A DNA stretch of 64,000 nucleotides from Parachlamydiales bacterium (GCA_019694475.1 JAIBBX010000001.1:128001-192000), one strand, 5' to 3'; shown: positions 6,462 to 63,481, counted from the stretch's first letter. The notes: generated by a model not told the origin, from the letters alone. Program-made: numbers and translations.

Positions 6462-7354
6462 TGCAACGCATCTTGATTTCAGGGGCTTCCGGATTTATCG
6501 GACAGCCCCTCGTTTCTTTTTTAGAGCGTCAAGGCCATAGCGTCATTTCTCTTTCCCGCACTCCTGAAAAAAATGCGATTGTTTGGGACCCCGAAGCTGG
6601 GAAGGCCAATCCAGATGATTTTGAAGGTTTCGATGCAGTGATCCATCTAGCTGGAGAGCCTCTTACGCTAAGCCGCTGGACGAAATCGAAAAGGGAAAAA
6701 ATTCTCTTTTCCCGCACGATCGGCACTATGTTCCTCGCTCACATCCTTAAGTCGACTCTAAGCCCGCCCAAAGTTTTCATTTCCGCTTCAGCTGTCGGTT
6801 TTTACGGCGATAGGGGAGAGGAGATTTTGAATGAGGATAGTTCTGCGGGCGCTGGGTTCCTCGCAAATGTCTGCTGCGCCTGGGAAAAGGCCTCTTTTTC
6901 TCTTAAAGATAGGGGGATCCGGGTTGTTCATACCCGATTTGGCATAGTGATTGGTCCGAATGGAGGGGTGCTCAAAAAACTTCTCCTCCCATATCGATTA
7001 GGTTTGGGAGGGACCCTTGGAACGGGACGGCAATGGATCAGCTGGGTGCATCGAACCGATCTGATCCATGCCCTTTCATTCATTCTGCAGAGCCCATCCC
7101 TATCCGGGCCTATTAATATAGTTTCGCCCGAACCGATCCGGCAGAAAGATTTTGCGAAAACAATTGCCGAACTTCTTCATCGCCCTCACTTTCTCCATAC
7201 CCCGGCGTGGGCCTTGCGCCTTGTCCTCGGGATCGCGGCGGACGAGCTCCTTTTATCGAGCACCCGGGTTCAATCTGCAAAACTGCTTGCCTCAAAGTTT
7301 GCCTTCCAGTATTCTGATCTTCGAAGTGCTGTGTATAACGCCCTTCAGTTTTAA
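6461..7354 (+). CDS. TIGR01777/YfcH-type epimerase-family protein (atypical SDR with a DUF1731 C-terminus)
   Basis: The ATG at 6461 (TAATG overlap with the upstream stop) gives MQRILISGASGFIGQPL, a Rossmann GxxGxxG motif. Length and C-terminal region match the YfcH/SDR39U1 family. Confidence 0.8.
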   Translation: MQRILISGASGFIGQPLVSFLERQGHSVISLSRTPEKNAIVWDPEAGKANPDDFEGFDAVIHLAGEPLTLSRWTKSKREKILFSRTIGTMFLAHILKSTLSPPKVFISASAVGFYGDRGEEILNEDSSAGAGFLANVCCAWEKASFSLKDRGIRVVHTRFGIVIGPNGGVLKKLLLPYRLGLGGTLGTGRQWISWVHRTDLIHALSFILQSPSLSGPINIVSPEPIRQKDFAKTIAELLHRPHFLHTPAWALRLVLGIAADELLLSSTRVQSAKLLASKFAFQYSDLRSAVYNALQF

Positions 7355-7365
7355 AAGGAGTATCT

Positions 7366-7590
7366 ATGATAGCATCTATTGCTATATTCGCTTTGCTTGC
7401 TGCAGCTGAACCTGCACAAGAAGAATGTGTTGAAAACCAAGAAGAAATCGTGTTGTCAGTTGAGGAGTGCGAGCAGGAAGATGAAGCCGTAGTCCTTAAC
7501 ACGGAAGAAGACAGCGAATATCAAGATCTTGCTTTCTTTGAAGATGAAAGCGAAATTTCTGAAGAACTCGCTATCGCCGACGAAGAATAA
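7366..7590 (+). CDS. Small secreted, highly acidic protein
   Basis: There is an AAGGAG SD. The signal peptide is MIASIAIFALLAAA, followed by an E/D-rich sequence. No family was recognised. Confidence 0.6.
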   Translation: MIASIAIFALLAAAEPAQEECVENQEEIVLSVEECEQEDEAVVLNTEEDSEYQDLAFFEDESEISEELAIADEE

Positions 7591-7638
7591 TCGGCATGGA
7601 AGCTTGGAAGCGCACCTCTAACGATTTAATCTAGAGGG

Positions 7639-8244
7639 GTGTCTATGATTGCTGGGCTAAATCCCTGGATAACCATGTGGAATCAGCCCCGGAGCACGAT
7701 ACGGGCGATCGCGTTTAATAGGCCTACGTTTGGGATCTATTATTTAGCGATCATCTATGCGCTCCAAGGCTTCTTTTTTTATGCGAACTGGTGGTCTTTA
7801 GGCGTTCGGACCAATTATCCCTTCTATTTAACGCTCGGAATTATCGTATCGCCCTTGATAGGCATTCTTTGGCTCTATCTAATGGGTGAATTTTTCTATT
7901 TATCTGGCCGCCTTTTGAAGGGGACCGCGACTCGGAGGCAGCTGCGTGCAGCGGTTGCCTGGTCTGCGCTTCCTTTTACCATTACCTTGGCCATGTGGGT
8001 GATGCTTCTTTTCTGGAGTCCCGAGTATGTATTTATTCAAGACTCTGGCCCGCATTCTTCGATTTTCATCAACTTCATCACCTTAATCGCTAAGATCTGG
8101 TCCTTTATTCTTCTAATCCAATCACTTCGCGAGCTACAGCATTTTTCAACGGGCAAAGCCATCCTTAATGTGGTAGGAATATGGATCCTTTCCTCAGTTC
8201 TCTTTTTCGTTGTATTTTCGGTTCTTAGGCAGTTCGTCATATAA
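7639..8244 (+). CDS. Yip1-domain multi-pass membrane protein (paralog 1)
   Basis: About 200 aa with 5 predicted TM segments. The N-terminal NPWITMWNQPRSTIRAI motif is shared with the downstream paralog. Confidence 0.7.
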   Translation: MSMIAGLNPWITMWNQPRSTIRAIAFNRPTFGIYYLAIIYALQGFFFYANWWSLGVRTNYPFYLTLGIIVSPLIGILWLYLMGEFFYLSGRLLKGTATRRQLRAAVAWSALPFTITLAMWVMLLFWSPEYVFIQDSGPHSSIFINFITLIAKIWSFILLIQSLRELQHFSTGKAILNVVGIWILSSVLFFVVFSVLRQFVI

Positions 8245-8324
8245 TTGATTGTAATTTCGTCACTTCTGTAATTATTTGTAATTAAATTTGTTTTGCTTTT
8301 AGAATAAGCCTAGGTGGCGTCGAT

Positions 8325-8415
8325 GTTTCGGGTGCCTCTGGCTACTCGACTGAGCTACAGAGTGCAAGCATACCCCGCCGCGCTTGAAAATAGAGTAGAT
8401 GGGGGCACCCGAAAC
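8325..8415. repeat. Perfect 12-bp inverted repeat (GTTTCGGGTGCC / GGCACCCGAAAC) enclosing 67 nt; a possible RNA stem between the Yip1 paralogs
   Basis: The arms are at 8325..8336 and 8404..8415. The stem extends by G-U pairs in RNA. The loop contains a tRNA D-arm-like string (minus strand GTAGCTCAGTCGAGTAGC) that does not complete a cloverleaf. Confidence 0.6.
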
Positions 8416-8426
8416 CTTGAGGAAGC

Positions 8427-9086
8427 ATGGAACACCAAAACCCTTGGCTGTCGATCTGGACTAAGCCAAGAATGACCATTCGAAAGATTGTAGCCGAAAA
8501 CCCTGACCGCTCTCTGTGGTGGTTAGCGGGTATTTATGGCTTCTGTTCGATGCTCAATTTATTCCAATCAATGACCTTCGGCAATCTGATGGGGTCGATT
8601 GGTATTTTGATATTAGCCATTATTCTTGCTCCTTTTTATGGATTTATCAGCTTCTCGGTTTGGAGCTGGTTTGTCTTTCAAACAGGTAAATGGTTTAAGG
8701 GACAAGGCACGTTTAAATCCGTTCGCGCCTCGTATGCATGGTCGTGCGTCCCCATATTGATTAACATTCCTCTTTGGCTGCTGATGGTCATTTTGTTTGG
8801 CCATCAGCTCTTTACAAATTTCCCTGATGCCCACACGCTGCCGAATACGCAGATTTTCGCTCTTTTTGCCATCTTGATTGCCAAGATTGTGGTGGCCATT
8901 TGGTCTTTAGTGATCTTTTTGAACGCCTTGGCTGAAGTGCAGCAATTTTCGATGGTCAAAACGATTTTCAATGTGATTGTGGCTGGGCTGATCTTAGGAG
9001 TGATCTTTTTTATCCTCTGGAGCCTATTGCTCTACGCTTTAGGGGGAGTAGCAACGAGCCCATTCTTAATTTGGAAACCCATTTAA
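8427..9086 (+). CDS. Yip1-domain multi-pass membrane protein (paralog 2)
   Basis: The NPWLSIWTKPRMTIRKIV N-terminus and TM topology parallel 7639..8244. A GAGGAAG SD is present. Confidence 0.7.
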   Translation: MEHQNPWLSIWTKPRMTIRKIVAENPDRSLWWLAGIYGFCSMLNLFQSMTFGNLMGSIGILILAIILAPFYGFISFSVWSWFVFQTGKWFKGQGTFKSVRASYAWSCVPILINIPLWLLMVILFGHQLFTNFPDAHTLPNTQIFALFAILIAKIVVAIWSLVIFLNALAEVQQFSMVKTIFNVIVAGLILGVIFFILWSLLLYALGGVATSPFLIWKPI

Positions 9087-9098
9087 TGGAGAAAAGCC

Positions 9099-9656
9099 AT
9101 GGATAAAACACGAATAAAAAAAATCGGGATTTGGTTCCTAGCCTTTTCTCTGTTTGCTTTCCATCTCTTCTTCCGGACCGTTGGCCATGCAGAAGCGAAC
9201 AAATGGCAAAGAGTGATCGCAAAAAGCGGGGAGTGCCATATCTCTTTCCCGACAGCGCCGCAAATGATTCAGCAAAGCTTGCCTCTCGCAGACGGAATCA
9301 ACCGCCTCTCTTATGATGTTTATTTAGCTCCCCACGAAGATAAAGGTGTATTCCTTCTTCTAATCGCAACCTATCCGATGCCTCTTTCCGGAGGACATGA
9401 AATTGCAGGACTTGAAGGTCTTTTAAGTGGAATCTTGAATCACAATCCAGAAAATCAACTCGTTTATGCCAATTTGACCGAACTCAGCGGACATCCAGCG
9501 ATGGATTTCCTGGTCGAAGGGGGAACCAGCTATTTCCGCGGTCAAGCTCTCATGATTGGCAACAAGCTCTATCTCATCGCCATGGAAGGAATGAAAGGAA
9601 AGTTGGATGAAAAAACCTTCAATCAATTTCTAAAGTCATTCAAGTTATCTGAATAA
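9099..9656 (+). CDS. Hypothetical secreted protein
   Basis: 185-aa ORF with an N-terminal hydrophobic signal (IGIWFLAFSLFAFHLFF). No family was recognised. Confidence 0.6.
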   Translation: MDKTRIKKIGIWFLAFSLFAFHLFFRTVGHAEANKWQRVIAKSGECHISFPTAPQMIQQSLPLADGINRLSYDVYLAPHEDKGVFLLLIATYPMPLSGGHEIAGLEGLLSGILNHNPENQLVYANLTELSGHPAMDFLVEGGTSYFRGQALMIGNKLYLIAMEGMKGKLDEKTFNQFLKSFKLSE

Positions 9657-9674
9657 GTTAATTAGACATTGACA

Positions 9675-9733
9675 GTCGGGCGTGTTTGCTGGGCGCCGAG
9701 GCGCAGCGCGTACGCGCGCGTAGCATGCCCGAC
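9675..9733. terminator. GC-rich compound hairpin between convergent genes (candidate bidirectional terminator)
   Basis: GTCGGGCGTG (9675..9684) pairs with CATGCCCGAC (9724..9733), with one G-U pair. The interior holds a 12-bp perfect palindrome GCGCGTACGCGC (9706..9717). There is no clear U-tract. Confidence 0.45.
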
Positions 9734-9764
9734 GTCATAATTTAACTAATCTATCTATTCTATC

Positions 9765-10649
9765 CTAAATACCCCAGTTGAGGCTGGCGCCTGCGTAAGG
9801 GGCTCCTTGCACATCTGTGTAGAGGGAATGGTGGCCTTGGCGGTTCTTGATGTAAAAGGCCCCGCCAAAGTTATAGCCTCCAAAGAACTCTAGCTCCAGC
9901 TGCAAAAATTTCTCGTAGTGGACGTTGAATTCTAAGCCCATGGACGAATAGCTGAAGACGGAGCGGGGAGACGGTTCCATTTTCCCTGCGCGAAAGCGCT
10001 CTTTTAAAGGACGCCCCTTTAAAGCAATGCGCCATCTATCAGTGAGAATGTATTCGATCGAATAGTTGATTGGAAAGACTGCTTGAAAGAACCATTTTTT
10101 ATTGAGGGTATAATCAAGGCCGATGATAGGGTAGATTTCTTGTCCTTCAAAGCCTGTATAGCCTAAAGCTCCTACGTGGTAATGCCAATTGCAACGGAAT
10201 TCATGCGTTCCCCAAAGAAGGGCTGAGAAAAGTCCATAGGTTTTGGGCCTGGAAAAGTGTTTGATATCGACATTGTAGTCGATCCGCGCAATCCATCTCC
10301 AGGTCTCGACTGCTTGGGTAAGGAAAGTCAATGCGAACTGCATGTAGTGGAAGTGGGTTTCGCGAAAACGGGGATTGCGGTTCCAATCCATCGTAAAAGT
10401 ATTCCATTCGACCCGCGGCAGAAAAAAAGAACATTGGCTGATGGGTACAAAGCAGGTGGCAAAAGCGTTGGCTTTATTGAAAAGCAGCTCCCCATCTTCG
10501 GGTCCTCTTTTGCGCTTCACATCCGCGCTGCCAAGCGCAATGATATTGCCTCCCACATGGATGGGATGATAGTCCCAAATAGATTTTTCTTCGCAGCATT
10601 CATAGGCCATAAGCCCGCATGCGAAGAGAGTGAACAGTGCTTTCTTCAT
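9765..10649 (-). CDS. Putative outer-membrane beta-barrel protein
   Basis: The internal ATG at 10649 gives the signal peptide MKKALFTLFACGLMA. The sequence is aromatic-rich with alternating amphipathic strands. It has an ATGA overlap with the recN stop. The family is not recognised. Confidence 0.5.
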   Translation of the reverse strand: MKKALFTLFACGLMAYECCEEKSIWDYHPIHVGGNIIALGSADVKRKRGPEDGELLFNKANAFATCFVPISQCSFFLPRVEWNTFTMDWNRNPRFRETHFHYMQFALTFLTQAVETWRWIARIDYNVDIKHFSRPKTYGLFSALLWGTHEFRCNWHYHVGALGYTGFEGQEIYPIIGLDYTLNKKWFFQAVFPINYSIEYILTDRWRIALKGRPLKERFRAGKMEPSPRSVFSYSSMGLEFNVHYEKFLQLELEFFGGYNFGGAFYIKNRQGHHSLYTDVQGAPYAGASLNWGI

Positions 10650-12109
10650 GTTTTGCAACCCATCATTCGATTGTATTCGCGCATTTTTTCCTTTTCGCCC
10701 ATCTTTTGCACAATAGTATAGGTGCTCTCGTCCCGCGCTTCTTTCGAAACAAGAAAGTGGTCTTTCCCACATTTAGCAACTTGGACAAAATGTGTCACGC
10801 AAATCACTTGTCTAAATTGCGAAATACGTTTCAATTTCTCGCCGATTGCAGACGCAGTCTGTCCTCCTACATTGCTATCGATTTCATCAAAAACAAGAGT
10901 CGATTTTCCCTCGGACAGTATCGTCTTGATAGCAAGTAAAAGGCGCGATAGTTCGCCGCCGCTGGCGCACTTTTCAATAGGAATCGGCGGATGGCCTGGG
11001 TTGGCTGAAAAAAGAAATTCAATCTGTGCATCGATCGACACTTCGAATTGCGCATTCGGAATGTTGAGACTTTTTAGTTCATCGAGAATGAGGCTGGAAA
11101 ATTGCGGGGCTGCCTTTTTTCTCTTGCCGGTGATTGATTGGCTCCAAGTTTTGTTTTTTTCCTTCAGAGTAGCGAGCGATTTTTGCAAAGCATCGATTCG
11201 AACATCGATATTGGTTAAATGCTCAATGGTTGCATTCAGTTTTTCTTTTTGGGCTTCGATATCTGGACCGAATCTTCTTTTGAGCGTCACGATGGAGCCG
11301 ATTTCCCGTTCCAACGCCTCAAGACGGGCCGGATTTACTTCAATCCGGTCAGCATAACTTTGGATCGACTGATGCGCCTCCTCCAATTCAAGAAGAGCGC
11401 TTTTTACCGATTGCGCAATTGGCTGCAATTTAGCATCGAAACGGATCGAATGCTCCAAGCTGCTAAGTGCCCTTTTGAAGTTGGGCATTCCCTCCTCAAA
11501 AATAGAAGCCGCCATGCCGATTTTTTCGGCAAGCTCTTGAGCGTGGGTGAGGAGATGATGCTCAGCAGATAATTTTTCTTCTTCCTTCCATCTGACTTCT
11601 TCAATGAGGTCTAGATCTTTTTTAGCCCATTCGAGCTCCCGCTCTTTGGGCGTAGCAAGAAGGGAATTCAATTCGTTTTCGAGGGCCTTCTCTTCGCTAT
11701 TTGAAGCTTCATAAGCTTTGACTTCTTCGGAAATGTGCGCAAATTGGTCAAGAAGCTGTTTCTCTTGTCCGAGTATAGAGCTGCTTTGATCGACCATCTC
11801 GATCTGAACCGATTCTTTCAATACAGCAAGACTTACTTGCGCATCATCGATGAAGCACCGGTTTTTGCCAGAGCGGTAGATTTCTCTTCGGAGGATCGAA
11901 CCATCTTCAAATTCAGCTTCAACGATGGCCATATCCGACCCTTTCCGAATGCAGGATGTGTCGGCTCTTTCTCCGGAAATGAGGCGGATCGCAGATAAAA
12001 CGGCCGATTTGCCAGACCCAGTTTCTCCAGTGAGAATATTGAGCCCGCTTCCAAATTCTAAAACTGCAGACTGGATCAGGATCAAATTTTGGATTTTTAA
12101 CCGTTTCAC
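10646..12109 (-). CDS. recN: DNA repair protein RecN
   Basis: It has the Walker A motif GETGSGKS, a long coiled-coil middle, and a C-terminal SMC-type signature and Walker B (GGELSRLLLAIK, LVFDEID). The likely start is the GTG at 12109 (VKRLKIQNLILIQ), which forms a GTGA overlap with the rnhC stop. Confidence 0.9.
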   Translation of the reverse strand: MKRLKIQNLILIQSAVLEFGSGLNILTGETGSGKSAVLSAIRLISGERADTSCIRKGSDMAIVEAEFEDGSILRREIYRSGKNRCFIDDAQVSLAVLKESVQIEMVDQSSSILGQEKQLLDQFAHISEEVKAYEASNSEEKALENELNSLLATPKERELEWAKKDLDLIEEVRWKEEEKLSAEHHLLTHAQELAEKIGMAASIFEEGMPNFKRALSSLEHSIRFDAKLQPIAQSVKSALLELEEAHQSIQSYADRIEVNPARLEALEREIGSIVTLKRRFGPDIEAQKEKLNATIEHLTNIDVRIDALQKSLATLKEKNKTWSQSITGKRKKAAPQFSSLILDELKSLNIPNAQFEVSIDAQIEFLFSANPGHPPIPIEKCASGGELSRLLLAIKTILSEGKSTLVFDEIDSNVGGQTASAIGEKLKRISQFRQVICVTHFVQVAKCGKDHFLVSKEARDESTYTIVQKMGEKEKMREYNRMMGCKT

Positions 12110-54782: not shown

Positions 54783-57700
54783 ATGACAGCCATGTCTCGT
54801 TTTCTAACTCTTTCGTTTGCTCTTGCAAGCAATATCATATTTGCACATCCCGAAAATCCTCAGGTTCGTGCAGGGCAAGCTTCATTTGTACAGAATGAGC
54901 ATCTACTAGAAATCTTTGCGTCTGATAATGCAATCATTGGATGGAAAGATTTTTCGATTCAGTCTCATGAAACCGCACGGTTTGTTCTTCCTAGTCAATC
55001 CGCCAAAGTATTGAATCGGGTCATCGGCAAAATTCCGAGCTCGATTCAGGGAGCCTTAGAATCCAACGGACAAATTTTTCTTCTCAATCCCAACGGCGTT
55101 CTGATTGGAAAAGATGCCAAAATTAAGACAGCCGGTTTCTTTGTAACCACTTTTGAGCTTGCGGACGAAGATTTTTTAAGCGGCGGCTATTTTCAATTAG
55201 ATCCTGAGAATGGAATGGGGATCGAAAACCTAGGCCGGATCGAAGCGTTGGATGGAGAAATCTTTCTCATTGCAAAAACAGTGGAAAATCAAGGGTCCAT
55301 TATTGGGAAAAATGTGACCGTCGCAGCTGGGGGCGAATGGATCATTCAAAACCTAGATCCTAAAAGGCCGAAAATTAAAACATCAAAACAGCTATCTGAT
55401 TCCGAAGCTCTTAATCCATATGCTGCTGCAATTAGGCATAGCGGAGCGATCGAAGCGATCGGCTACGCGGAAAAAGATGGAAATATCTTCCTCATATCAG
55501 AAAATGAGATCGAACTCTTTGACCATGCAAATTTGACTAGTTTGAATGGAGGGGAGATTCGAGCGCTCGGGAAAAATATCTGCGTCGAAGAAAAAGTACA
55601 AATTGAAAGCAGCAGCGATGCTGGTGGAAAAATTGTCTTGGTCAGCGAAGGGGCGATGCAATTTTTGGGAACTGCCGTTGCTGAAGGGAAAGAGCTCGAT
55701 GGCGGGTTTGTTGAGATCTCTGGAAGTCCAATCCATTTTCACGGAATAGTTTCTACCTATTCTCAAAAGGGAAAAACAGGAACTCTTCTTCTTGATCCCT
55801 TAGATATTATGATCTCGACAGCCGCCGATTTTGCTGTAACGACTTTGCCAGGACCGATTTTTGAACCCACTGATCCTCTTTGCATGTCGAACTTGAGCAC
55901 CGCAACGCTGACCGGAGCATTAGCATCCAATAACGTCACTGTGAAAACTACTGGAACCGCAGGGGCATGCCTTGGCGACATCATTGTTAAAAGCCCATTT
56001 ACTTGGTCCTCTGCCAATTCTTTGACTTTCGACGCAGCGCACGATCTGATTGTGCAAGAACAAGTATATGCGACAGGGAAAGGGGCGATCATTGCGACAG
56101 TTGGCAATGCTGTTTCAATCAATCCAGGAGCAGGAGCAGGTCCTGCAGAACTGCGAACCACTCAAGGCGCCATTTCTTTAACTGCTGCTGCAAATGACAT
56201 TGTGGTTACAGGAGGGACTTTACCTTCAGCTTCCTCTGGAATTTTCAGCGACAGCGGAACGATCACTCTCTCGCCTCACATCAATTTGACTGTAATGGGA
56301 GGTCCTGGTGTAGGAGCTTATGCAGAAATTTCATCGCGAGCTGGCCCGATAAATGGCAGCATCGGCGCAGGAGGGGTGCTTACAGTTCAAGGGGGCGGAC
56401 CGAATGCATATGCACAGATCGGGGTGGGGACTGCCTCAACGGGTATAAATGTCTCCAGCACAATCACCTTCACATTTGATGTGAATGCAGGAGATTTAGA
56501 TGTACTTGGCGGCACATTCAGCGGTGCTTATGCTCAGATTGGACATGCTCCCCATCCAGCAGGGAATAATACAACAGTTGCAGGATCCATCATTTTCAAT
56601 CCTCCCAATTTAGGAGTTGGCAATAACATCAACGTAACTGGTGGAGGCATTCAATCTACAGCCATCATTGGGCATGGCAATGAACTGTCTGGGAATATCG
56701 CAACAGCATCAGGTGATTTTCAGATCTACGCTCAAGGAGCGATCACAGTTCAAGGCGGAACGATCGGAAGTCAGTCTCATGCAGTCATTGGCTTTCATAC
56801 ACCTGAGGGGGGGCCTTCTGGAAGTTATTCAGCGACTTCAAATCTTCTGGATGTAAGGACTTTGATTTCAGGAGATATTCTCATTAACGGCGGGACTGGA
56901 AGCAATGGCGTCATCGGCTACTATAACAATTCGTCATTAACTCCTCTTGCTAGCGTCGATATTAAGTCGATCAACATTGTGCCTACCGATTCGAACGTTG
57001 TCACTTTAACAGCAGGAAAATTGAATGCAACTCCTCACGGAGCTGCGGTTCTTGGAACAATGGATCTTCTAGGCAGCGCAAATTCCAATATCACGATTGT
57101 GAGCGGCGGTCTTTCTGTGTTAGGACCGCAGCTTGGAGCCAATGATGGGGCTGCTCGCTTAATCAATGGAAGACCGAACGTAAACGCAGGCAGAAGTATT
57201 TTGATCGACTGCGCTTCAACGCCTTTGATTGCAAGCATCGCAGTCTTAGGTGGAATCGGGCTAAGCCCTGGATTCGCAGAGATCTATTCCAGCGGAACTC
57301 TCAATATGCAGCTGTTCGGCCATCTCTATGTCAATCGCTCTTTGACAGTTGTCCCCATTTTGCAAAACGGTCCAGCTCAAATTGTCAGCTATGGAGCCAC
57401 GACCGTCAACGGTTCTTTCCCCTGTATGGATGTAGTTGTCTTGGGGGGAACCAATACAGGAATCAATTATAGGGGATCGGCTCTCTTCCAATCTATCTCT
57501 TCTACCATCAATGTAGGAACCGCTTTTAGCGCGGGCGCAATCGGTTTAACAGTTGGATATGTTTTTTCTGAAGCCCCCTCTCAAATTTTAACCTCGTCCG
57601 GGACCAGCGTCATTTCATATACCGGAGTCGGTGTTTTACAAGGAGGCCAGGCGAATCTAAATGCTCCTCATGCATCTGCTGAGATCCGCAGCGATTTGGG

Positions 57701-60700
57701 TAATTTACAATTGACAAACGGAATGTCTTTATCTCTGACTGGAGGGACTGGACTTCTCTGTTTTGCTGAAATCTCTTCAACAATGGGAAATGTCCTCATC
57801 AACAATATATCGGGTCCGATTACTCTATCGGGCGGAACTACCATTGGCGGCATCAATGCCTATGCGCAGATTGGTAGAGGGATCGGGATCAATACGCCTC
57901 AGGTGATGAGCAGCATCACTTTTGATAATATCGGCGCCGTATCTCTAACGGCATTTGATGGTCCTGGGGCCTATGTGCAAATCGGCCAATCTCCAACCGA
58001 TCCGGTTGCCCTCTCTACTGTCGTAGGGGATGTTATTTTCAATTCCGGGGCTGCAAATCTATTGCTTCAAGGAGGCTCTGCAATCACAAATACGGCGATC
58101 ATCGGACACGGCAACGAATTGACGCCAAGGCTTTTCAATGTATCTGGTTCTATTAATGTTATTGTGAATGCGGCAGGAACCTCTTCGCTTTTTGCAAGCC
58201 CAACGGTTGGACAGGCTCACGCGATCATTGGGTTTTGCAATCCGAAAGCAGGCTCAGCCGCCTCATTCAATGTAAACTCTGGATCTGTCTCTTTGCTCAG
58301 TAGGGGAAACACGCATCTCAAGGCTGGAGTTTTTGGCAGCAATGCAATCATTGGCTATTACAATGGGGTAAATCCTCAACTCACACCCGTTAATTTGACA
58401 ATCCAAAACGTCACAATGGATGGAAACAACGGGGCTGTCAACGTGTTGCTAGAAGCTGGTAATGATCCGGGGACTGGTGCAGTCGGAGAGGCTCCCGTCG
58501 GAATTGCAGCGATAGGAACGCTTGTGAATAGCGGAGGTTCATTTGCCTATAGCAATGTAACTGTGACTGCTTCTACGCTCACACTTCTTGGACCTACTGC
58601 AGGCAATAACGGATCGGCTCGGATTGTTAACAGCCATCCGAATACCGCAAATCCCGTATTCAATATAGCGATTCAACCAACCACCAACATCAATGTCCTT
58701 GGCGGGGTCGGATTGCCAAATGGATTTGCAGATATATATTCTACTAACAACCTGTCTATCCAATATTTTGGAAATTTTTATATCAATGAGGCTTTCCCCG
58801 TCTTTCAAAATGGATATGCCCATGTTGTCGCCAGTCAAAATGTCGAGATCAACACAACGGCTTTTGGCACAGATATGAGGCTCACAGGGGGCAATAGCAA
58901 TATGGCATCAGGGGGAAGCGCAGATGCGCTCATTCAAGCCTTGAATGGCCATTGCTTTGTTGGCAATTTTTCTCCCGCAACCAACAATATCTACATTGGA
59001 AGGACAGGCAGTGAATCGCCCTCAAAAATAGAGGCTTTTCAAGATCAAATAGCGGTTGGAGCATCTCTTGACATCATTTTGCAAGGCGGAAAAGCCAATT
59101 TAGGACCTCCTCAAGCGACTGCCCAAATCCGAAACTTGAATGGCGCTATTAATATAACCGCTGGACAGAATCTAACTTTGAATGGCGGGACCGGACCTTT
59201 AACTTTTGCTCAGATTGGCAGTTTCCATGGCAATGTGACTGTTTCACAAGTAGGAAAAGACCTAACCCTAAATGGAGGGAGCGGACTTCAAGCTTATGCT
59301 CAAATCGGAATCGGGTACGATTTGACTCAGGCGATCATCAATAGTTCCATCACCTTCTTCTTTGTCGGCGGCAAAATGATTTTAAATGGCGCTATAGCTG
59401 GCGATTCAGGATATGCGCAGATAGGTCATTCTCCATTTGGCGCGATGCTCTTTTATAGCGCAACAGGCGATGTTCTCTTTCCAACATTTGGTTCGATTGG
59501 ACTCGGACAACTCAATGGAGGCTCAGTCAATAACTCCACCGCGATCATTGGTCATGGAAATCCTTTGAGCAGCAACCTCAATATAGCGAGCGGAAGCATC
59601 ACAGCAGGCTCTTCAGACTTAGCAGGGCTTACTCTAAATGCGGGAACTGGTTCAGAAAGTCACGCCGTCATTGGATATTTTAATCCAGTGGGGGGCTCAA
59701 CTCCTTCATTCACCGTGCAATCGAACCAAATTTCGGTAAATACGCTTCAAGGTCCGATTACTCTCAATGCAAACGCTGCTATGAATGCAACAATCGGGTA
59801 CTATCACCCAGCAGCATCTGCCACTCCGATCAGTGTCCAAGTGGGGAATATCTCGATGCAAACTGGAACTGGTTTGCCCCCTCTTTTTTCAAATTTCATC
59901 AATTTGAACGCTGATACGGGATTTCCAAACGGAATTGCCTCAATCGGCACCTTCGGTCCTACGGGATCAACGACAAGATCGGGAATCAGGATTCAAGCAG
60001 TCGAATTAAATTTAAATGGCCCTCCAGCTGGAAAAGATGGAGCTGCTCGAGTGATCAACAATCAACCATTTATTTGTTCGTTTGATCTTGTTCAGATCTC
60101 AGCCCTGAATATCAATGTAATTGGCGGACTGGGAACTGGTTTTTCAGATATCTATTCATCCAATCAGATGACCCTTTCTTTCAATGGAACACTCAATGTT
60201 AATTTAAACCCTGCGGCTCCTGCAGTTTTACAAAACGGAAACGCAACAATCACCTCTTGTAAAGACTTAAATATAACCGCTTACGGCACGCCGCCGAACA
60301 ATCTGGGAAATATTTTCATCTTAGGCGGATCGAATCCTGCAGTCCAATCCCAAATCGTTTCGAACACAGGGAATGTGAATGTGGGCAATTATCTGATGGA
60401 TATGCAAGGCGCAAAGCAAATCAATATCGGAAGAGCCGATATGATGGGGCCCGCTCGAATGACAGCGGCGCAAGGAAACATCAACTTGGTCACCTCAGGT
60501 TCTGTAAATATCTCTGGGGGAGCGGCTGCAGGCGCAGATGCTGATCTTACCGCTTTTGGAAGCTTGATAGGAACTGTGGGCGGCGATTTCGACGTAACCG
60601 GAGGCGTATTTGGAAATGCAACGGCAGTTGCTGGAAATGGACCGATCAATCTAGTTTCACGCGGGTCAGTCAATCTGATTGCCCAAGGAGCAACTACCGC

Positions 60701-61451
60701 TTCGATTGTCGAGCTAGGTTTGAACAACGATAGTGTTACGATCGAAGCTGTGAATAATCTGAATATGGGTCTGAATACATTCATTCAAAATCAAGGTAGC
60801 GGAAATATGGTTCTTAACGCAGGAGCCGATGCTGTTTTGATGAATAATGCGTACATTCAAAATTTGATGAACGGATCGCTCAATTTCTTCACAGGCATCT
60901 CCATGTATTTGCTCAACCAATCGCAAATTTTGTCGAATGGCGGCTCTGTGTCGCTAGTGGTCGACAACCTGTTTCCAACAGAAGCGATTGGTATAGGCAA
61001 TGGCGCTTTTCTTATGGATGGTGGAGCTGTCGTTAACTCGAATGGCGGGCTAACAAGAATTTTTACAGCTCGTAGGCCCTTGAATCGAATCGAGGGAGTG
61101 ATCAATGGACAGATTTTTGTCCCGGGACCCGAATTCGTCAATAGTAATGAGGAGATCTGGGGCGTTTATTATTTTTCCGCTCTTGGAGGAAATCCATTCA
61201 CAGTCTTTTATAAAGAGATTGTACCAATCCCTGTTGTTCCTGCGATCAACAATCTGGTCACTCGCAGTAATAATGAATTCTACTATGATTTGAGATCTTT
61301 TGATGATTTCATTTTTACCGCCATTCCAATCAATGTCTATTACGACTCCAAATATTTCGCCGAAGAAACGCTTGATTACAGATCCCTACGCAGGTTCTAT
61401 CGAGATTATCATCTGCTGCATATTGATACTTTAGGAGAGGGAGATGAATAG
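54783..61451 (+). CDS. Two-partner-secretion exoprotein (TpsA; filamentous-hemagglutinin-like, 2222 aa)
   Basis: It has a signal peptide (MSRFLTLSFALASNIIFA). The N-terminal TPS/hemagglutination-activity domain reads ...IIGWKDFSIQSHETARFVLPSQSAKVLNRVIG...IQGALESNGQIFLLNPNGVLIG. The remainder is long, Gly/Asn/Thr-rich and beta-helix-like. It is followed by and overlaps a TpsB gene. Confidence 0.85.
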   Translation: MTAMSRFLTLSFALASNIIFAHPENPQVRAGQASFVQNEHLLEIFASDNAIIGWKDFSIQSHETARFVLPSQSAKVLNRVIGKIPSSIQGALESNGQIFLLNPNGVLIGKDAKIKTAGFFVTTFELADEDFLSGGYFQLDPENGMGIENLGRIEALDGEIFLIAKTVENQGSIIGKNVTVAAGGEWIIQNLDPKRPKIKTSKQLSDSEALNPYAAAIRHSGAIEAIGYAEKDGNIFLISENEIELFDHANLTSLNGGEIRALGKNICVEEKVQIESSSDAGGKIVLVSEGAMQFLGTAVAEGKELDGGFVEISGSPIHFHGIVSTYSQKGKTGTLLLDPLDIMISTAADFAVTTLPGPIFEPTDPLCMSNLSTATLTGALASNNVTVKTTGTAGACLGDIIVKSPFTWSSANSLTFDAAHDLIVQEQVYATGKGAIIATVGNAVSINPGAGAGPAELRTTQGAISLTAAANDIVVTGGTLPSASSGIFSDSGTITLSPHINLTVMGGPGVGAYAEISSRAGPINGSIGAGGVLTVQGGGPNAYAQIGVGTASTGINVSSTITFTFDVNAGDLDVLGGTFSGAYAQIGHAPHPAGNNTTVAGSIIFNPPNLGVGNNINVTGGGIQSTAIIGHGNELSGNIATASGDFQIYAQGAITVQGGTIGSQSHAVIGFHTPEGGPSGSYSATSNLLDVRTLISGDILINGGTGSNGVIGYYNNSSLTPLASVDIKSINIVPTDSNVVTLTAGKLNATPHGAAVLGTMDLLGSANSNITIVSGGLSVLGPQLGANDGAARLINGRPNVNAGRSILIDCASTPLIASIAVLGGIGLSPGFAEIYSSGTLNMQLFGHLYVNRSLTVVPILQNGPAQIVSYGATTVNGSFPCMDVVVLGGTNTGINYRGSALFQSISSTINVGTAFSAGAIGLTVGYVFSEAPSQILTSSGTSVISYTGVGVLQGGQANLNAPHASAEIRSDLGNLQLTNGMSLSLTGGTGLLCFAEISSTMGNVLINNISGPITLSGGTTIGGINAYAQIGRGIGINTPQVMSSITFDNIGAVSLTAFDGPGAYVQIGQSPTDPVALSTVVGDVIFNSGAANLLLQGGSAITNTAIIGHGNELTPRLFNVSGSINVIVNAAGTSSLFASPTVGQAHAIIGFCNPKAGSAASFNVNSGSVSLLSRGNTHLKAGVFGSNAIIGYYNGVNPQLTPVNLTIQNVTMDGNNGAVNVLLEAGNDPGTGAVGEAPVGIAAIGTLVNSGGSFAYSNVTVTASTLTLLGPTAGNNGSARIVNSHPNTANPVFNIAIQPTTNINVLGGVGLPNGFADIYSTNNLSIQYFGNFYINEAFPVFQNGYAHVVASQNVEINTTAFGTDMRLTGGNSNMASGGSADALIQALNGHCFVGNFSPATNNIYIGRTGSESPSKIEAFQDQIAVGASLDIILQGGKANLGPPQATAQIRNLNGAINITAGQNLTLNGGTGPLTFAQIGSFHGNVTVSQVGKDLTLNGGSGLQAYAQIGIGYDLTQAIINSSITFFFVGGKMILNGAIAGDSGYAQIGHSPFGAMLFYSATGDVLFPTFGSIGLGQLNGGSVNNSTAIIGHGNPLSSNLNIASGSITAGSSDLAGLTLNAGTGSESHAVIGYFNPVGGSTPSFTVQSNQISVNTLQGPITLNANAAMNATIGYYHPAASATPISVQVGNISMQTGTGLPPLFSNFINLNADTGFPNGIASIGTFGPTGSTTRSGIRIQAVELNLNGPPAGKDGAARVINNQPFICSFDLVQISALNINVIGGLGTGFSDIYSSNQMTLSFNGTLNVNLNPAAPAVLQNGNATITSCKDLNITAYGTPPNNLGNIFILGGSNPAVQSQIVSNTGNVNVGNYLMDMQGAKQINIGRADMMGPARMTAAQGNINLVTSGSVNISGGAAAGADADLTAFGSLIGTVGGDFDVTGGVFGNATAVAGNGPINLVSRGSVNLIAQGATTASIVELGLNNDSVTIEAVNNLNMGLNTFIQNQGSGNMVLNAGADAVLMNNAYIQNLMNGSLNFFTGISMYLLNQSQILSNGGSVSLVVDNLFPTEAIGIGNGAFLMDGGAVVNSNGGLTRIFTARRPLNRIEGVINGQIFVPGPEFVNSNEEIWGVYYFSALGGNPFTVFYKEIVPIPVVPAINNLVTRSNNEFYYDLRSFDDFIFTAIPINVYYDSKYFAEETLDYRSLRRFYRDYHLLHIDTLGEGDE
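56232..60452 (+). repeat. Three tandem ~1.44-kb (~480-aa) diverged super-repeats within tpsA
   Basis: The ordered motif ladder recurs three times. The first motif ((F/Y)A(E/Q)I) begins at 56314, 57759 and 59201. Repeat starts are approximately 56232, 57672 and 59115, with a partial fourth start near 60453. Confidence 0.8.
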
Positions 61452-63048
61452 GAGAATTATTACTTCTCTTCTTTTTGTATTCGCATTGGAAGCTGCTCAA
61501 CTGAAATCGATTGTTTTGCTAGGTCCAGATTGTCAAACGCATCGGCTAATACCAACTTCCTGTGTCGCCACCAAAGGCTTCGAATTTCCGAAATTGACAA
61601 GAGAACTTGAAGCGAATATTGCCTGGGGTACCGAGATTGATCGCGAGCTCGTTCTAGAGATTCGTAAAGAGATCATCCGCACATTTAGAAGACTTGGCAG
61701 ACCCATAGTGATAGTTGAAATTCCGCCTCAAAGCCTTGCTAGCGGAGTCATACACTATCAAGTGATTCAAGGGCTGCTTGGAGAAATTCGCGCGTCAGGA
61801 AGTTGTTGGTATAGCAATCGGCTTTTTGAAAGGTCGATCCATTTAACGCCAGGTTGTCCGATCGATGAATACCAACTGCTGAATGATGTAGCTCTTTTAA
61901 ACCGAAGCCCTTTCCATCGGACCGATGTCGTTTACACTCCAAGCGAAGTTCAAGGCTATACAAATGTTGAACTGATCACCAGAGATCGGTTTCCTCTTCG
62001 AGTTTATGTGGGGGGAGACAACACCGGAACACGCCAAATCGACCGTCTTCGATTTTTTACGGGATTTGATTGTGGATATGCCTTTGGATTGGACCAAACG
62101 TTTTCCTATCAATACACAGCATCTCCCAATTTTTCGGAATTTCAGTCTCACACCTTCCATTACTTTGGGGCTCTGCCATGGGGCCATGTTTTTTTATTGT
62201 TTGGCGGATTTGCTACTGTGAAACCTCCGGATAGCAGTTTTACTCACTCGGAGGGCAAAAGCGGACAGGCGAGTATTCGATATGAAATTCCCATTCAATC
62301 TCTTTTTGAGGGCTGGCTCCATGAGCTTCAGTTGGGTTTCGATGGAAAATCGACGAATAATAACCTGATTTTCCTCGGATCAGGAGAGCCTGCGATTTTA
62401 CAAAATACTGCGAACCTTTCCCAGTTTGTTTTGGGATATGATATTGGCTGGAAAAATCTAGCCCATATTTTCAGTCTTAATGTTCTTTTCTTTTATTCAC
62501 CTGGCCGGATGCTCGCGAATGAAGAAGATGAGGACCTTGCAGTCTTTCGCGCAGGGGCAAAAAATCAATATTTATACGGTAAGGCAGCTCTGAGTTACGA
62601 ATATACCTATTCGGAAGTCTTCGGCATCTGGTTTCAAGGGAGATTTCAGAAAAGTTCTAGACCTCTTCTAGCGTCCGAACAGATTTCTATTGGAGGATAT
62701 GACACAGTTAGAGGTTTTGATGAAAGGCTCTATAATGGGGATAATGGGGTGATCGGGAATTTTGAATTCCAATCTCCAGAATACGCGATCATCGGAAACT
62801 TTAAGCCTCGTTGCAAAGATCGATTTATGGGACTTTGGTTTTTTGATTGCGGGTTTGCTGAACTCATGGAAAAAGTCATAGGAGAACCAAGAAGAGCTTT
62901 TCTAGCGTCTACAGGTCCAGCTGTTCATTATCGAATTGGAGATTGGTTTTCCGCCCGCGCCGCTTATGGTTTTAAGCTGCACAATGTAAAAAGCCTGGGC
63001 GATAGCTCGCTGGGCAAGCTCCATGCAGGACTCATTATTAGCTATTAG
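61444..63048 (+). CDS. TpsB outer-membrane transporter (ShlB/FhaC/HecB family; POTRA plus 16-strand barrel)
   Basis: It has a signal peptide, a POTRA-like sequence VIHYQVIQGLLGEIRASG, and the conserved L6 motif GGYDTVRGF. It has the C-terminal alternating-strand pattern. It overlaps the tpsA stop by 8 nt. Confidence 0.85.
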   Translation: MNRRIITSLLFVFALEAAQLKSIVLLGPDCQTHRLIPTSCVATKGFEFPKLTRELEANIAWGTEIDRELVLEIRKEIIRTFRRLGRPIVIVEIPPQSLASGVIHYQVIQGLLGEIRASGSCWYSNRLFERSIHLTPGCPIDEYQLLNDVALLNRSPFHRTDVVYTPSEVQGYTNVELITRDRFPLRVYVGGDNTGTRQIDRLRFFTGFDCGYAFGLDQTFSYQYTASPNFSEFQSHTFHYFGALPWGHVFLLFGGFATVKPPDSSFTHSEGKSGQASIRYEIPIQSLFEGWLHELQLGFDGKSTNNNLIFLGSGEPAILQNTANLSQFVLGYDIGWKNLAHIFSLNVLFFYSPGRMLANEEDEDLAVFRAGAKNQYLYGKAALSYEYTYSEVFGIWFQGRFQKSSRPLLASEQISIGGYDTVRGFDERLYNGDNGVIGNFEFQSPEYAIIGNFKPRCKDRFMGLWFFDCGFAELMEKVIGEPRRAFLASTGPAVHYRIGDWFSARAAYGFKLHNVKSLGDSSLGKLHAGLIISY

Positions 63049-63481
63049 GCGGATATAGAGATAAAAAGAGTCTGATTTGGCCGATAAGGCCATTTTTGGA
63101 ATTGAATGTGCCAAGAATTTCCATACAGTAGATGATATTGGCTGTCCCGTCGTTATCCTTATTACAAGAAGTTTGATATAAGGACTCTGTGCAGTAGGGT
63201 TGCGGGACGGTTAGAAAGTTCAAAATGCTCTGGCATGATGGGCTGTTATATGCACTGGGATCTTCCGTTTTTAACAGATTCAAATCATTCACCACTATCT
63301 GAATCCATTGCATCATCGGAAAAATAATGATCGAATTTTCCAATCCTTCTTGCTGATATGAAAGAGCCTGTACAAATAATGGGAGCAGCATTTCTCCCAT
63401 ATCGTATTCAATTTGAGCTAAAATGGGATTGCTTTGCGCACCCGCCGCTCCTGAAATTGGATTGATTTCTTCTGTTATCAT
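63038..63481 (-). CDS. Hypothetical protein
   Basis: 147-aa ORF. Its 3' end overlaps the tpsB 3' end by 11 nt. No family was recognised. Confidence 0.45.
   Translation of the reverse strand: MITEEINPISGAAGAQSNPILAQIEYDMGEMLLPLFVQALSYQQEGLENSIIIFPMMQWIQIVVNDLNLLKTEDPSAYNSPSCQSILNFLTVPQPYCTESLYQTSCNKDNDGTANIIYCMEILGTFNSKNGLIGQIRLFLSLYPPNS

What the first reader, a model, noticed from the sequence alone, without database searches (positions are those of the whole stretch)
56232..60452. TpsA passenger is built from three ~480-aa super-repeats with a strictly ordered x-A-x-I-G / x-I-G-(H/F/Y) motif ladder
Reading the protein, the same ordered series of short motifs recurs three times.

First half of each super-repeat:
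- R1: GAYAEISS, NAYAQIGVG, GAYAQIGHAP, TAIIGHGNEL, HAVIGFHTPEGG, NGVIGYYNNS.
- R2: CFAEISS, NAYAQIGRG, GAYVQIGQSP, TAIIGHGNEL, HAIIGFCNPKAG, NAIIGYYNGV.
- R3: TFAQIGS, QAYAQIGIG, SGYAQIGHSP, TAIIGHGNPL, HAVIGYFNPVGG, NATIGYYHPA.

Second half of each super-repeat:
- GAARLING / GSARIVNS / GAARVINN.
- GFAEIYSS / GFADIYST / GFSDIYSS.
- LQNGPAQIVS / FQNGYAHVVA / LQNGNATITS.

The first motif starts at nt 56314, 57759 and 59201, giving offsets of 1445 and 1442 nt. Sub-motifs are spaced about 90-135 nt apart, roughly one beta-helix coil each. The copies are strongly diverged at the DNA level, so this is an old, maintained duplication rather than a recent slippage product.

The motif set does not match what I remember of FHA-type repeats or of chlamydial Pmp GGA(I/L/V)/FxxN repeats.
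Basis: seen in the sequence. Interest (0 to 1): 0.65.

Follow-up and report, generated by a model that had tools for sequence, protein, structure and literature searches.

The report
Triplicated beta-helix module in chlamydial TpsA
A giant secreted surface protein of an environmental chlamydia-like bacterium contains three old, strongly conserved copies of a roughly 480-residue beta-helix cassette, which belongs to a widespread repeat family that the protein-family databases checked here do not describe.

Summary
The 2222-aa ORF at 54783-61451 is a two-partner-secretion exoprotein (TpsA), and its TpsB transporter gene overlaps its end.

**The repeat**
- Residues 454-934, 935-1412 and 1413-1892 are three collinear copies of one ~480-aa module.
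- The copies share 36-39% protein identity (E 1e-46 to 1e-61).
- DNA identity is only 45-47%, and third codon positions are saturated.

**Structure**
- AlphaFold2 gives a confident all-beta model (pLDDT 86, pTM 0.91).
- Each x-A-x-I-G motif is a strand ending at the glycine.

**Age and constraint**
- Modules from ten three-module homologues cluster by position, not by protein. This points to one ancient triplication.
- dN/dS in the modules is about 0.04, lower than in the TPS domain (0.13).

**Wider family**
- The module occurs in 1 to about 9 copies in TpsA proteins from chlamydia-labelled metagenome-assembled genomes.
- It derives from a simpler ~38-aa rung, 'LxLxGG…YAQIGHGG' (hhalign 98.8%). 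That rung fills giant proteins of up to 7042 aa.
- A profile search found 517 cluster representatives.
- Pfam, NCBIfam and PDB sequences have no model or match for it.

**Verdict**
This is an undescribed repeat and module family inside a known kind of system. An adhesin function is inferred, not shown.

The parts
54783..61451 (+). tpsA coding sequence (2222 aa; database homologues start at the ATG 9 nt downstream, MSRF…)
   Evidence: ORF list and translation. Pfam TPS and TIGR01901 hits. Full-length homologues of 36-88% identity.
54783..54845 (+). Probable Sec signal peptide (MTAMSRFLTLSFALASNIIFA | HPENP)
   Evidence: Read directly from the sequence. No signal-peptide predictor was run, so this is an inference.
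54924..55481 (+). TPS secretion domain (aa 48-233), with NPNG at aa 102-105
   Evidence: PF05860 E 6.8e-28. TIGR01901 E 2.1e-19. NPNG located.
56142..57584 (+). Module 1 (aa 454-934). Motif strands: GAYAEISS 56313, NAYAQIGVG 56403, GAYAQIGHAP 56523, TAIIGHGNEL 56658, HAVIGFHTPEGG 56778, NGVIGYYNNS 56904, GAARLING 57147, GFAEIYSS 57270, LQNGPAQIVS 57360
   Evidence: HMM domain 454-934, 701 bits.
57585..59018 (+). Module 2 (aa 935-1412). Same ladder: CFAEISS 57759, NAYAQIGRG 57855, GAYVQIGQSP 57966, TAIIGHGNEL 58092, HAIIGFCNPKAG 58218, NAIIGYYNGV 58341, GSARIVNS 58611, GFADIYST 58722, FQNGYAHVVA 58803
   Evidence: AlphaFold2 model of this module: pLDDT 86.1, pTM 0.91, all-beta.
59019..60458 (+). 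Module 3 (aa 1413-1892). Same ladder: TFAQIGS 59202, QAYAQIGIG 59289, SGYAQIGHSP 59406, TAIIGHGNPL 59538, HAVIGYFNPVGG 59661, NATIGYYHPA 59784, GAARVINN 60039, GFSDIYSS 60138, LQNGNATITS 60228
   Evidence: It groups with the single module of one-module proteins at 94% bootstrap.
60459..60950 (+). Post-module beta-helix. From aa 1981 the model shows regular ~24-aa coils with three strands each; aa 1893-1980 were not modelled.
   Evidence: AlphaFold2 of aa 1981-2222. Residues 1-80 of the model have pLDDT 89-97, with strands at 5-9/13-15/20-23, 29-33/37-39/44-47 and so on.
60951..61220 (+). Conserved C-terminal cap domain (aa 2057-2146): LVVDNxFP…IGxGxF…RIFTARRxLNxIxGxINGxxFxPG…ExW..YY…GxPFTxFYK
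   Evidence: jackhmmer on the fetched proteins matches 99 of 267, and for about 75 of them the match ends at or near the protein's C-terminus. Alignment A3. No Pfam match. No significant Foldseek match.
61221..61448 (+). C-terminal tail (aa 2147-2222), ending in the conserved RRxYRxYH.K.ID motif. Predicted helical with low confidence.
   Evidence: (pLDDT 39-64) and the consensus.
61444..63048 (+). tpsB transporter gene (534 aa). Its start overlaps the tpsA stop by 8 nt.
   Evidence: PF03865 ShlB/FhaC/HecB, E 1.9e-16. The same tpsA-tpsB order is seen in L015, L016, L002 and L004.
63078..63092 (+). Terminator-like hairpin 30 nt after tpsB (weak evidence)
   Evidence: Consensus scan. The number of such sites is not above the shuffled expectation.

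Best explanation
The locus is a type Vb (two-partner) secretion pair from a chlamydia-like obligate intracellular bacterium.

**Secretion (inferred from the established TPS pathway, not tested here).** TpsB, an Omp85-family outer-membrane porter, recognises the N-terminal TPS domain of TpsA and threads the protein out. TpsA then folds coil by coil into a long beta-helix.

**Architecture of the passenger (shown here).** It is repeated at three levels.
1. A rung of about 28-43 aa. It runs: strand x-A-x-I-G, a variable loop, strand x-I-x-V/F, a turn, strand L-x-L-x-G-G, a loop. Each rung is most likely one three-sided coil.
2. A cassette of about 12 rungs (~480 aa). In it the rungs have diverged into fixed, position-specific forms: IGxG, IGHSP, IGHGNEL, IGF.NP, IGYYN, IGT, ARxxN, GFxxIYS, QNGxA.
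3. Three tandem copies of that cassette.

**History (shown here).**
- The rung descends from a simpler homogeneous 'LxLxGG-x5-YAQIGHGG' repeat found in many giant exoproteins.
- The cassette was triplicated once, before the known three-module lineages diverged.
- Since then it has been kept under very strong purifying selection.

**Function (inferred).** The cassettes form a rigid fibre. Their conserved post-IG loops give a repeated lateral surface, most likely for multivalent binding to a host or other surface ligand. The fibre also carries a conserved C-terminal cap domain at its end.
For: **TPS identity**
- PF05860, TIGR01901 and PF03865 hits, and the 8-nt tpsA/tpsB overlap.
- NPNG at aa 102.

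**Host lineage**
- A TLC ATP/ADP translocase lies 5 kb upstream.
- Full-module relatives in reference genomes are labelled Chlamydiota, Chlamydiales or Parachlamydiales.
- Synteny (TLC, HIT, desaturase, SelR … tpsA, tpsB) is kept in the 52% and 88% orthologue loci.

**Three modules**
-.

**Fold**
- AlphaFold2 pLDDT 86.1, pTM 0.91, 39 strands and no helices. The motifs fall on strands 60-65, 93-96, 130-133, 170-175, 212-217 and 253-260 of the model.
- The only Foldseek neighbours are beta-helix or solenoid proteins such as Ag43, VacA p55, IgA1 protease, EtpA, HxuA and tapirin. All are non-significant.

**One coil per rung**
- The shortest rungs (model residues 32-60 and 60-93) hold three strands at offsets 0, +8-10 and +16-19.
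- This matches the regular 24-aa three-strand coils of the C-terminal helix.

**Origin from a simpler rung**
- hhalign of the canonical YAQIGHGG array against the module gives probability 98.8%, E 7.5e-17, over module positions 92-211.

**Ancient single triplication**
- Position-wise clades and the identity matrix.
- Saturated synonymous sites between copies.

**Constraint**
- dN/dS is 0.040-0.043 in the modules, 0.13 in the TPS domain and 0.06 overall.

**Spread and copy number**
- 517 representatives at E <= 1e-3 and 134 at E <= 1e-30.
- 1, 2, 3 and about 8-9 modules per protein.

**Background**
- TpsA passengers are beta-helices of imperfect repeats, and adherence functions map to loops that project from the helix (PMC5422565).
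Against: - No experiment or annotation links this protein to adhesion. Every source name is generic: 'filamentous hemagglutinin family protein' or 'hypothetical protein'.
- Very low dN/dS is unusual for an exposed adhesin facing host or immune pressure. It would also fit a purely structural role.
- I had only the DSSP string of the model, not coordinates. The coil count per rung, the handedness, and whether the conserved loops line up on one face are therefore inferred.
- Foldseek found no significant structural neighbour (best E 0.09, TM <= 0.25). The beta-helix assignment rests on the all-beta periodic pattern, the nature of the weak hits and the TpsA context.
- dS between the two compared genes is near saturation (about 1.1-1.2), so the dN/dS values are rough.
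Confidence: 0.7

Rival explanations
1. The modules are only a stalk. They add length and folding energy, and project the conserved C-terminal cap domain, which is the real functional part. The modules themselves bind nothing specific.
For: - The C-terminal domain is shared by about 75 proteins whose passengers differ: 1-9 modules, or no module at all.
- Module number varies widely.
- In several multi-module proteins only the last module, next to the C-terminal domain, is complete.
- Low dN/dS fits tight core-packing constraints.
Against: - Conservation is highest at the turn and loop residues, not only in the core: AIIGHGN, IGYYN, GP…G.AR..N..P and GF..IYS are invariant or nearly so in 14 units from five proteins.
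- The modules are more constrained than the TPS domain.
- A mere spacer would not need each of 12 rungs to keep a distinct identity across the known three-module lineages.
Confidence: 0.2
2. It is a secreted pore-forming cytolysin of the ShlA/ExlA type, not an adhesin.
For: - The TpsB matches the Pfam family named after ShlB.
- ShlA/ExlA toxins are also TpsA beta-helices with a distinct C-terminal functional region (general knowledge; PMC5263249 is listed).
Against: - PF03865 covers all TpsB transporters, including FhaC and HecB. It says nothing about the cargo.
- No haemolysin-specific family was found on the passenger at E <= 10.
- The C-terminal region is predicted as a beta-helix cap plus low-confidence helices, with no similarity to known structures.
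Confidence: 0.07
3. It is a contact-dependent inhibition (CdiA-like) toxin-delivery protein.
For: CdiA proteins are very large TpsA proteins with long repeat regions (PMC3415462 and PMC3482391 are listed).
Against: - There is no VENN or similar pre-toxin motif.
- The C-terminus is conserved across orthologues of 27-49% identity, not polymorphic.
- The gene immediately downstream is tpsB, overlapping by 8 nt, so there is no immunity ORF.
- The gene order is tpsA-tpsB, not cdiBAI.
Confidence: 0.02

Closest known systems
Filamentous haemagglutinin FHA/FhaB with FhaC (Bordetella), the prototype TpsA/TpsB adhesin
   Same: - N-terminal TPS domain with NPNG.
- Omp85-family partner encoded next door.
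- A passenger over 2000 aa long, made of tandem imperfect repeats that form a beta-helix.
- A distinct non-repeat C-terminal region.
   Different: - FHA repeats are short (about 19 aa) and fairly uniform. Here the rungs are 28-43 aa, carry a different signature (LxLxGG…xAxIG[HGN]) and are organised into a 12-rung cassette that is itself triplicated.
- No Pfam haemagglutinin-repeat family matches.
- No evidence here for a cleaved C-terminal prodomain.
Chlamydial polymorphic membrane proteins (Pmp; type Va autotransporter adhesins with GGA(I/L/V) and FxxN repeats)
   Same: - Chlamydial lineage.
- Type V secretion.
- Predicted beta-helical, repeat-rich surface protein.
- Plausible adhesin role.
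   Different: - Different secretion subtype: Vb with a separate TpsB, and no C-terminal autotransporter barrel.
- GGA[ILV] occurs once (0.86 expected) and FxxN 9 times (8.8 expected), so there is no enrichment.
- PF02415 was not detected.
EtpA (enterotoxigenic E. coli) and HMW1 (Haemophilus): TpsA adhesins with larger-scale repeats or extra-helical elements
   Same: - Secreted beta-helical TpsA adhesins.
- EtpA chains appear among the weak Foldseek neighbours (8vbb, 8cpk).
   Different: - No sequence similarity beyond the TPS domain.
- Structural similarity is not significant (E >= 1.7, TM <= 0.21).
- Gene order and accessory genes differ: there is no glycosyltransferase gene next to this locus.
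Giant 'YAQIGHGG'-rung proteins in the profile search (P0130, P0133, P0143, P0157 and others, 2800-7042 aa). Related rung-level loci carry Verrucomicrobiales, Akkermansia, Rhizobium or Rhizomicrobium labels.
   Same: - The same rung family: hhalign 98.8%, with 11-36 rung-block matches per protein.
- Several of them also start with a TPS domain.
   Different: - Their rungs are homogeneous copies of about 38 aa, not diversified into an ordered 12-rung cassette.
- Among those listed, none with 11 or more rung-block matches scored for the conserved C-terminal cap domain; a few show only weak partial matches.

Membership tests
Two-partner secretion exoprotein (TpsA, type Vb) | N-terminal TPS secretion domain with the conserved NPNG turn | tested here: met
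   PF05860 E 6.8e-28 (98.7 bits against a cutoff of 33.5), aa 48-233. TIGR01901 69.2 bits against a cutoff of 29.1. NPNG at aa 102.
Two-partner secretion exoprotein (TpsA, type Vb) | Cognate Omp85-family TpsB transporter encoded in the same operon | tested here: met
   The ORF at 61444-63048 matches PF03865 at E 1.9e-16 and overlaps tpsA by 8 nt. The pairing is conserved in L015, L016, L002 and L004.
Two-partner secretion exoprotein (TpsA, type Vb) | Passenger folds as a beta-helix of stacked coils | tested here: inconclusive
   The AlphaFold2 models are confident, all-beta and periodic. The only Foldseek neighbours are beta-helices, but none is significant.
Two-partner secretion exoprotein (TpsA, type Vb) | TpsB-dependent export to the cell surface or medium | not testable with these tools
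   Needs expression and secretion assays.
FHA-type haemagglutinin repeats (Pfam Fil_haemagg / Fil_haemagg_2) | Significant match of the passenger to the haemagglutinin repeat HMMs | tested here: not met
   hmmscan of each module and of the flanks against Pfam-A at E <= 10 returned no haemagglutinin repeat family.
Chlamydial Pmp repeats (PF02415; GGA[ILV] + FxxN) | Enrichment of GGA(I/L/V) and FxxN tetrapeptides, and a Chlam_PMP HMM match | tested here: not met
   1 GGA[ILV] against 0.86 in shuffles, and 9 FxxN against 8.8. No PF02415 hit.
Other defined beta-strand repeats of type V passengers (PATR PF12951/TIGR02601; T5SS/PEP-CTERM repeat TIGR04393) | HMM match at or near the curated cutoff | tested here: not met
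   No such family was listed for the modules at E <= 10 in Pfam or NCBIfam. None was listed for canonical rung arrays of P0147, P0145, P0157 or P0014. HMMER's filters drop many hits above E of about 0.1.
CdiA / contact-dependent inhibition toxins | Polymorphic C-terminal toxin after a VENN-type motif, followed by an immunity gene | tested here: not met
   No VENN motif. The C-terminus is conserved in 23 diverse homologues. The downstream gene is tpsB.
'YAQIGHGG' rung / 12-rung module family (defined here, not curated) | Profile match to the ~462-position module HMM, and rung-level homology to the canonical array | tested here: met
   Three domains of 701-745 bits in the window protein. hhalign of the canonical array against the module gives 98.8%. 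517 representatives in the 1.84-billion-protein library.

The most novel reading that the evidence does not exclude
The ~480-aa cassette is a self-contained, previously undefined ligand-binding beta-helix domain. On this reading the TpsA/TpsB pair is the main host-attachment device of environmental chlamydiae, a functional counterpart of the Pmp autotransporters of Chlamydiaceae. The conserved His, aromatic and Asn residues after each I-G turn (IGHGN, IGF, IGYYN) would form a ladder-like binding ridge. Copy number (1, 2, 3 or about 9) would then set valency and reach.
Probability: 0.25. Interest if true: 0.6.

Novelty: new variant of a known kind. Interest (0 to 1): 0.42.

Why it matters
- **A gap in the family databases.** TpsA passengers are usually annotated only through their N-terminal 250 residues. 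Here about 65% of a 2222-aa protein belongs to a family with no model in Pfam or NCBIfam and no match among PDB sequences. The same is true of hundreds of large exoproteins from chlamydia-like, verrucomicrobial and other bacteria.
- **Annotation.** Defining the rung and the 12-rung module would let thousands of residues per protein be annotated.
- **A structural target.** A single module is about 460 aa and already has a confident model.
- **A candidate adhesin.** Adhesins of environmental chlamydiae are poorly known, and the two-partner-secretion review consulted here never mentions Chlamydia.
- **A case study in repeat evolution.** A homogeneous solenoid repeat differentiated into a fixed ordered cassette. 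The cassette then became the unit of duplication and stayed under dN/dS of about 0.04.
- **Limit.** The overall system, a TPS-secreted beta-helix, is well known, so this is an extension and not a new principle.

Tried and rejected
1. Self-BLASTP of the whole protein reported only the identity hit. I cut the protein into segments instead.
A1 worked.
3. The search for homologous proteins with profile A2 returned one protein only. With module 3 alone it returned nothing, not even the query's own protein. The word-based candidate step seems swamped by this low-complexity G/N/A/S-rich sequence. Two of the three searches were effectively lost, and no taxon names came from them.
4. The look-up of encoding contigs for the window's own protein (P0001) found nothing on record.
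5. Hydrophobicity autocorrelation, meant to distinguish 20-aa from 40-aa coils, gave no clear peak. I first considered two ~19-aa coils per rung. I rejected this because the shortest rungs would then need impossible 12-14-aa coils.
6. A Biopython NJ bootstrap timed out. I replaced it with my own NJ implementation.
7. A literature search for the motif string 'AQIGHG' gave 0 papers. Searches for TPS systems in chlamydiae found nothing specific.
8. Rfam found no RNA family in the window.
9. The 'heme/hemopexin-binding protein' label on the Anoxychlamydiales homologue P0025 most likely reflects similarity of the shared TPS domain. I did not take it as functional evidence.

Full report
**1. What is at the locus**

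The finding lies inside one ORF, 54783-61451 (+), of 2222 aa.

- Its N-terminus matches the TPS secretion domain: PF05860, E 6.8e-28, aa 48-233. It also matches TIGR01901, E 2e-19, and has the NPNG turn at aa 102.
- The next ORF, 61444-63048 (+), 534 aa, overlaps it by 8 nt and matches the ShlB/FhaC/HecB transporter family PF03865, E 1.9e-16.
- The neighbourhood holds a TLC ATP/ADP translocase, a HIT protein, a fatty-acid desaturase and SelR.
- The same gene order flanks the 52%-identical and 88%-identical orthologues found in metagenome assemblies (L015; L016).
- Full-length relatives in reference genomes come from MAGs labelled Chlamydiota, Chlamydiales or Parachlamydiales.
- One relative is labelled 'Verrucomicrobia bacterium SZAS-17'. 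Its flanking gene is 62% identical and syntenic with the window, so it is probably a chlamydia-like genome too.
- The organism is thus an environmental chlamydia-like bacterium. I did not place it more precisely.

**2.

- All 26 motifs are present, in the same order in three blocks.
- Ungapped self-comparison peaks at offsets of 481 and 962 aa.
- The three blocks are aa 454-934, 935-1412 and 1413-1892, which is nt 56142-60458.
- They align collinearly at 36-39% identity, with BLASTP E-values of 2e-46 to 9e-61.
- Equivalent residues are exactly 481 aa apart.
- At the DNA level the copies are 45-47% identical. Third positions are 30% identical, and no exact shared word is longer than 14 nt. Recent slippage or recombination is excluded.

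**3. Anatomy**

AlphaFold2 was run on module 2 with an alignment of 14 modules from five proteins.

- The model is confident (pLDDT 86.1, pTM 0.91) and purely beta, with 39 strands.
- Every x-A-x-I-G motif sits on a strand that ends at the glycine: model residues 60-65, 93-96, 130-133, 170-175, 212-217 and 253-260.
- The shortest rungs (28-33 aa) contain three strands at offsets 0, +8-10 and +16-19. The post-module helix of the same protein has the same spacing, in regular 24-aa three-strand coils.
- Longer rungs (40-43 aa) differ by a longer connection after the I-G, which forms an extra short strand.
- I therefore infer one three-sided coil per rung and about 12 coils per module. The position-specific sequences after I-G (xG, HSP, HGNEL, F.NP..G, YYN) would be the first turn or loop of each coil.
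- This is an inference from the DSSP string.
- Foldseek against the PDB found no significant neighbour (best E 0.09, TM <= 0.25). Most of the weak hits are beta-helices or solenoids, including Ag43, VacA p55, IgA1 protease, EtpA, HxuA, tapirin and tailspikes.
- Composition is typical of such passengers: G 15%, N/A/S about 10% each, very few charged residues.

**4. Not a defined repeat family**

- Each module, the flanks and the C-terminus gave no Pfam or NCBIfam match at a meaningful E-value; the only rows listed at E <= 10 are DUF4225 (E 8.2) and blaSAM (E 1.6), both noise.
- The module profile matched no PDB sequence at E <= 10.
- GGA[ILV] and FxxN, the Pmp signatures, occur at shuffled frequency. 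[AS]x[IV]G occurs 22 times against 8.8 expected.
- Source names for homologues are only 'filamentous hemagglutinin (N-terminal domain-containing / family) protein' or 'hypothetical protein'.
- A text search for the motif found no paper.
- The 2017 TPS review does not mention Chlamydia.

**5. The wider family**

A profile of 14 modules was searched against 1.84 billion representative proteins. It found 517 proteins at E <= 1e-3 and 134 at E <= 1e-30. Two classes emerge.

Class (a): TPS domain, then 1, 2 or 3 complete modules, then a conserved C-terminal domain.
- Minimal proteins of about 1060-1150 aa carry one module.
- Proteins of about 1920 aa carry two.
- Fourteen sequences of 2093-2352 aa (counting the window ORF and its database copy P0001) carry three.
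- One 4751-aa protein (P0123) carries about 8-9 tandem modules.

Class (b): giant proteins of 2800-7042 aa.
- They give 11-36 partial matches confined to module positions ~35-212.
- These are homogeneous ~38-aa rungs of the form 'LxLxGG-x5-[YF]AQIGHGG'.
- These arrays also lack any Pfam or NCBIfam model.
- hhalign of a canonical rung array against the module gives 98.8% probability, E 7.5e-17.
- Rung-level relatives occur in MAGs labelled Verrucomicrobiales, Akkermansia, Rhizobium and Rhizomicrobium.

The 'super-repeat' is a module that also exists singly.

**6. History and constraint**

- In a neighbour-joining analysis of 35 modules (452 columns, 100 bootstraps), modules group by position, not by protein.
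  - All second modules form a clade at 94%.
  - All first modules form a clade at 71%.
  - All third modules form a clade at 64%.
  - Third modules plus the modules of one- and two-module proteins form a clade at 94%.
- The triplication therefore happened once, before the known three-module lineages diverged. The C-terminal-proximal module is the one closest to the single-module state.
- Between the window gene and its 88% orthologue, Nei-Gojobori dN/dS is 0.040-0.043 in each module, 0.13 in the TPS domain and 0.06 overall.
- dS is about 1.1-1.2, near saturation, so these values are rough.
- Invariant or nearly invariant columns across 14 modules include turn and loop residues: AIIGHGN, IGYY, GP…G.AR..N..P and GF..IYS.

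**7. C-terminal region**

- After module 3 the helix continues (regular 24-aa coils are modelled from aa 1981; aa 1893-1980 were not modelled). It ends in a conserved cap: LVVDNxFP…RIFTARR…NG..F.PG…E.W..YY…G.PFT.FYK, aa 2057-2146.
- A low-confidence helical tail follows, ending in RRxYRxYH.K.ID.
- In the jackhmmer search, about 75 of the 267 fetched proteins carry this region at or near their C-terminus.
- It has no Pfam model and no significant structural neighbour.
- It is conserved, not polymorphic. There is no VENN motif and no immunity-like ORF before tpsB. This argues against a CDI toxin.

**8. Mechanism**

Shown here:
- TPS domain and TpsB partner.
- An all-beta periodic passenger.
- A three-level repeat hierarchy.
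- A single old triplication.
- Strong purifying selection.

Taken from established TPS biology (PMC5422565):
- Sec export, recognition of the TPS domain by the TpsB POTRA domains, translocation through the barrel, and vectorial folding into a beta-helix at the surface.
- Functional sites typically lie on loops that project from the helix.

Inferred:
- The three cassettes make a rigid fibre. At about 36 coils and 4.8 Å per coil, they would add about 17 nm.
- The conserved post-IG loops offer three equivalent lateral surfaces, most likely for multivalent attachment to a host or surface ligand.
- The main rival is that the cassettes are only a stalk for the conserved C-terminal domain.
- Cytolysin and CDI readings have little support.

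**9. Verdict**

- The observation and most of the interpretation are correct.
- The system type is known.
- The rung family and the 12-rung module are undescribed in the libraries I could test, and they are widespread.
- It is of moderate interest.

Noticed in passing
window 52299-53900 (-): A 533-aa ORF lies upstream of tpsA and is divergently oriented. It has no Pfam match. It contains a conserved 'QHEIFGHGYRIRD' stretch (HExxxH-like) and a C-terminus ending in …LYYTLIF, which resembles an outer-membrane barrel terminus. It is 62% identical to the gene in the equivalent position of L002. Unannotated ORFs of 440-524 aa sit at the same position in L015 and L016; I did not compare their sequences with this ORF. 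It could be a conserved partner of the TPS locus.
   Followed up: partly
window 60951-61448 (+), aa 2057-2222 of TpsA: This is a conserved C-terminal domain: LVVDNxFP … RIFTARR … FYK cap, then a tail ending RRxYRxYH.K.ID. About 75 TpsA-like proteins with quite different passengers share it. It has no Pfam model and no significant PDB fold match. It looks like a domain family of its own.
   Followed up: partly
window 48487-49965 (-): A TLC-family ATP/ADP translocase (PF03219, E 3e-147) lies 5 kb upstream. This is a hallmark of obligate intracellular bacteria such as chlamydiae and rickettsiae.
   Followed up: partly
L002 (JAFEGL010000064.1, 'Verrucomicrobia bacterium SZAS-17'): This contig carries a three-module TpsA (36% identical over its full length), a TpsB, and the same upstream 521-aa gene (62% identical) as the chlamydia-like window. 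The MAG's phylum label may be wrong.
   Followed up: partly
L003 (CBDBKM010000011.1, Chlamydiales MAG) 2899-11411: The TpsA homologue is split into ORFs of 739, 391 and 406 aa ahead of an intact 566-aa TpsB. It is either a decaying pseudogene or the result of frameshift errors in the assembly.
   Followed up: no
P0123 (4751 aa), P0130 (6901 aa), P0143 (7042 aa): P0123 has about 8-9 tandem modules with a period of ~550 aa, and only its last module is complete. P0130 and P0143 are built from dozens of plain YAQIGHGG rungs. P0130, P0143 and most others with 24 or more rung-block matches showed no match to the window's TPS domain (P0152, P0157 and several others with 11-18 do), so their secretion route is unknown.
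   Followed up: partly
window 1-64000: No Rfam family, not even a tRNA, reached its gathering score anywhere in the 64-kb window.
   Followed up: no
window 55763-56161 (-) and 60389-60784 (-): ORFs of 131-132 aa lie antisense within tpsA. They are most likely spurious products of the biased composition of the coding strand.
   Followed up: no
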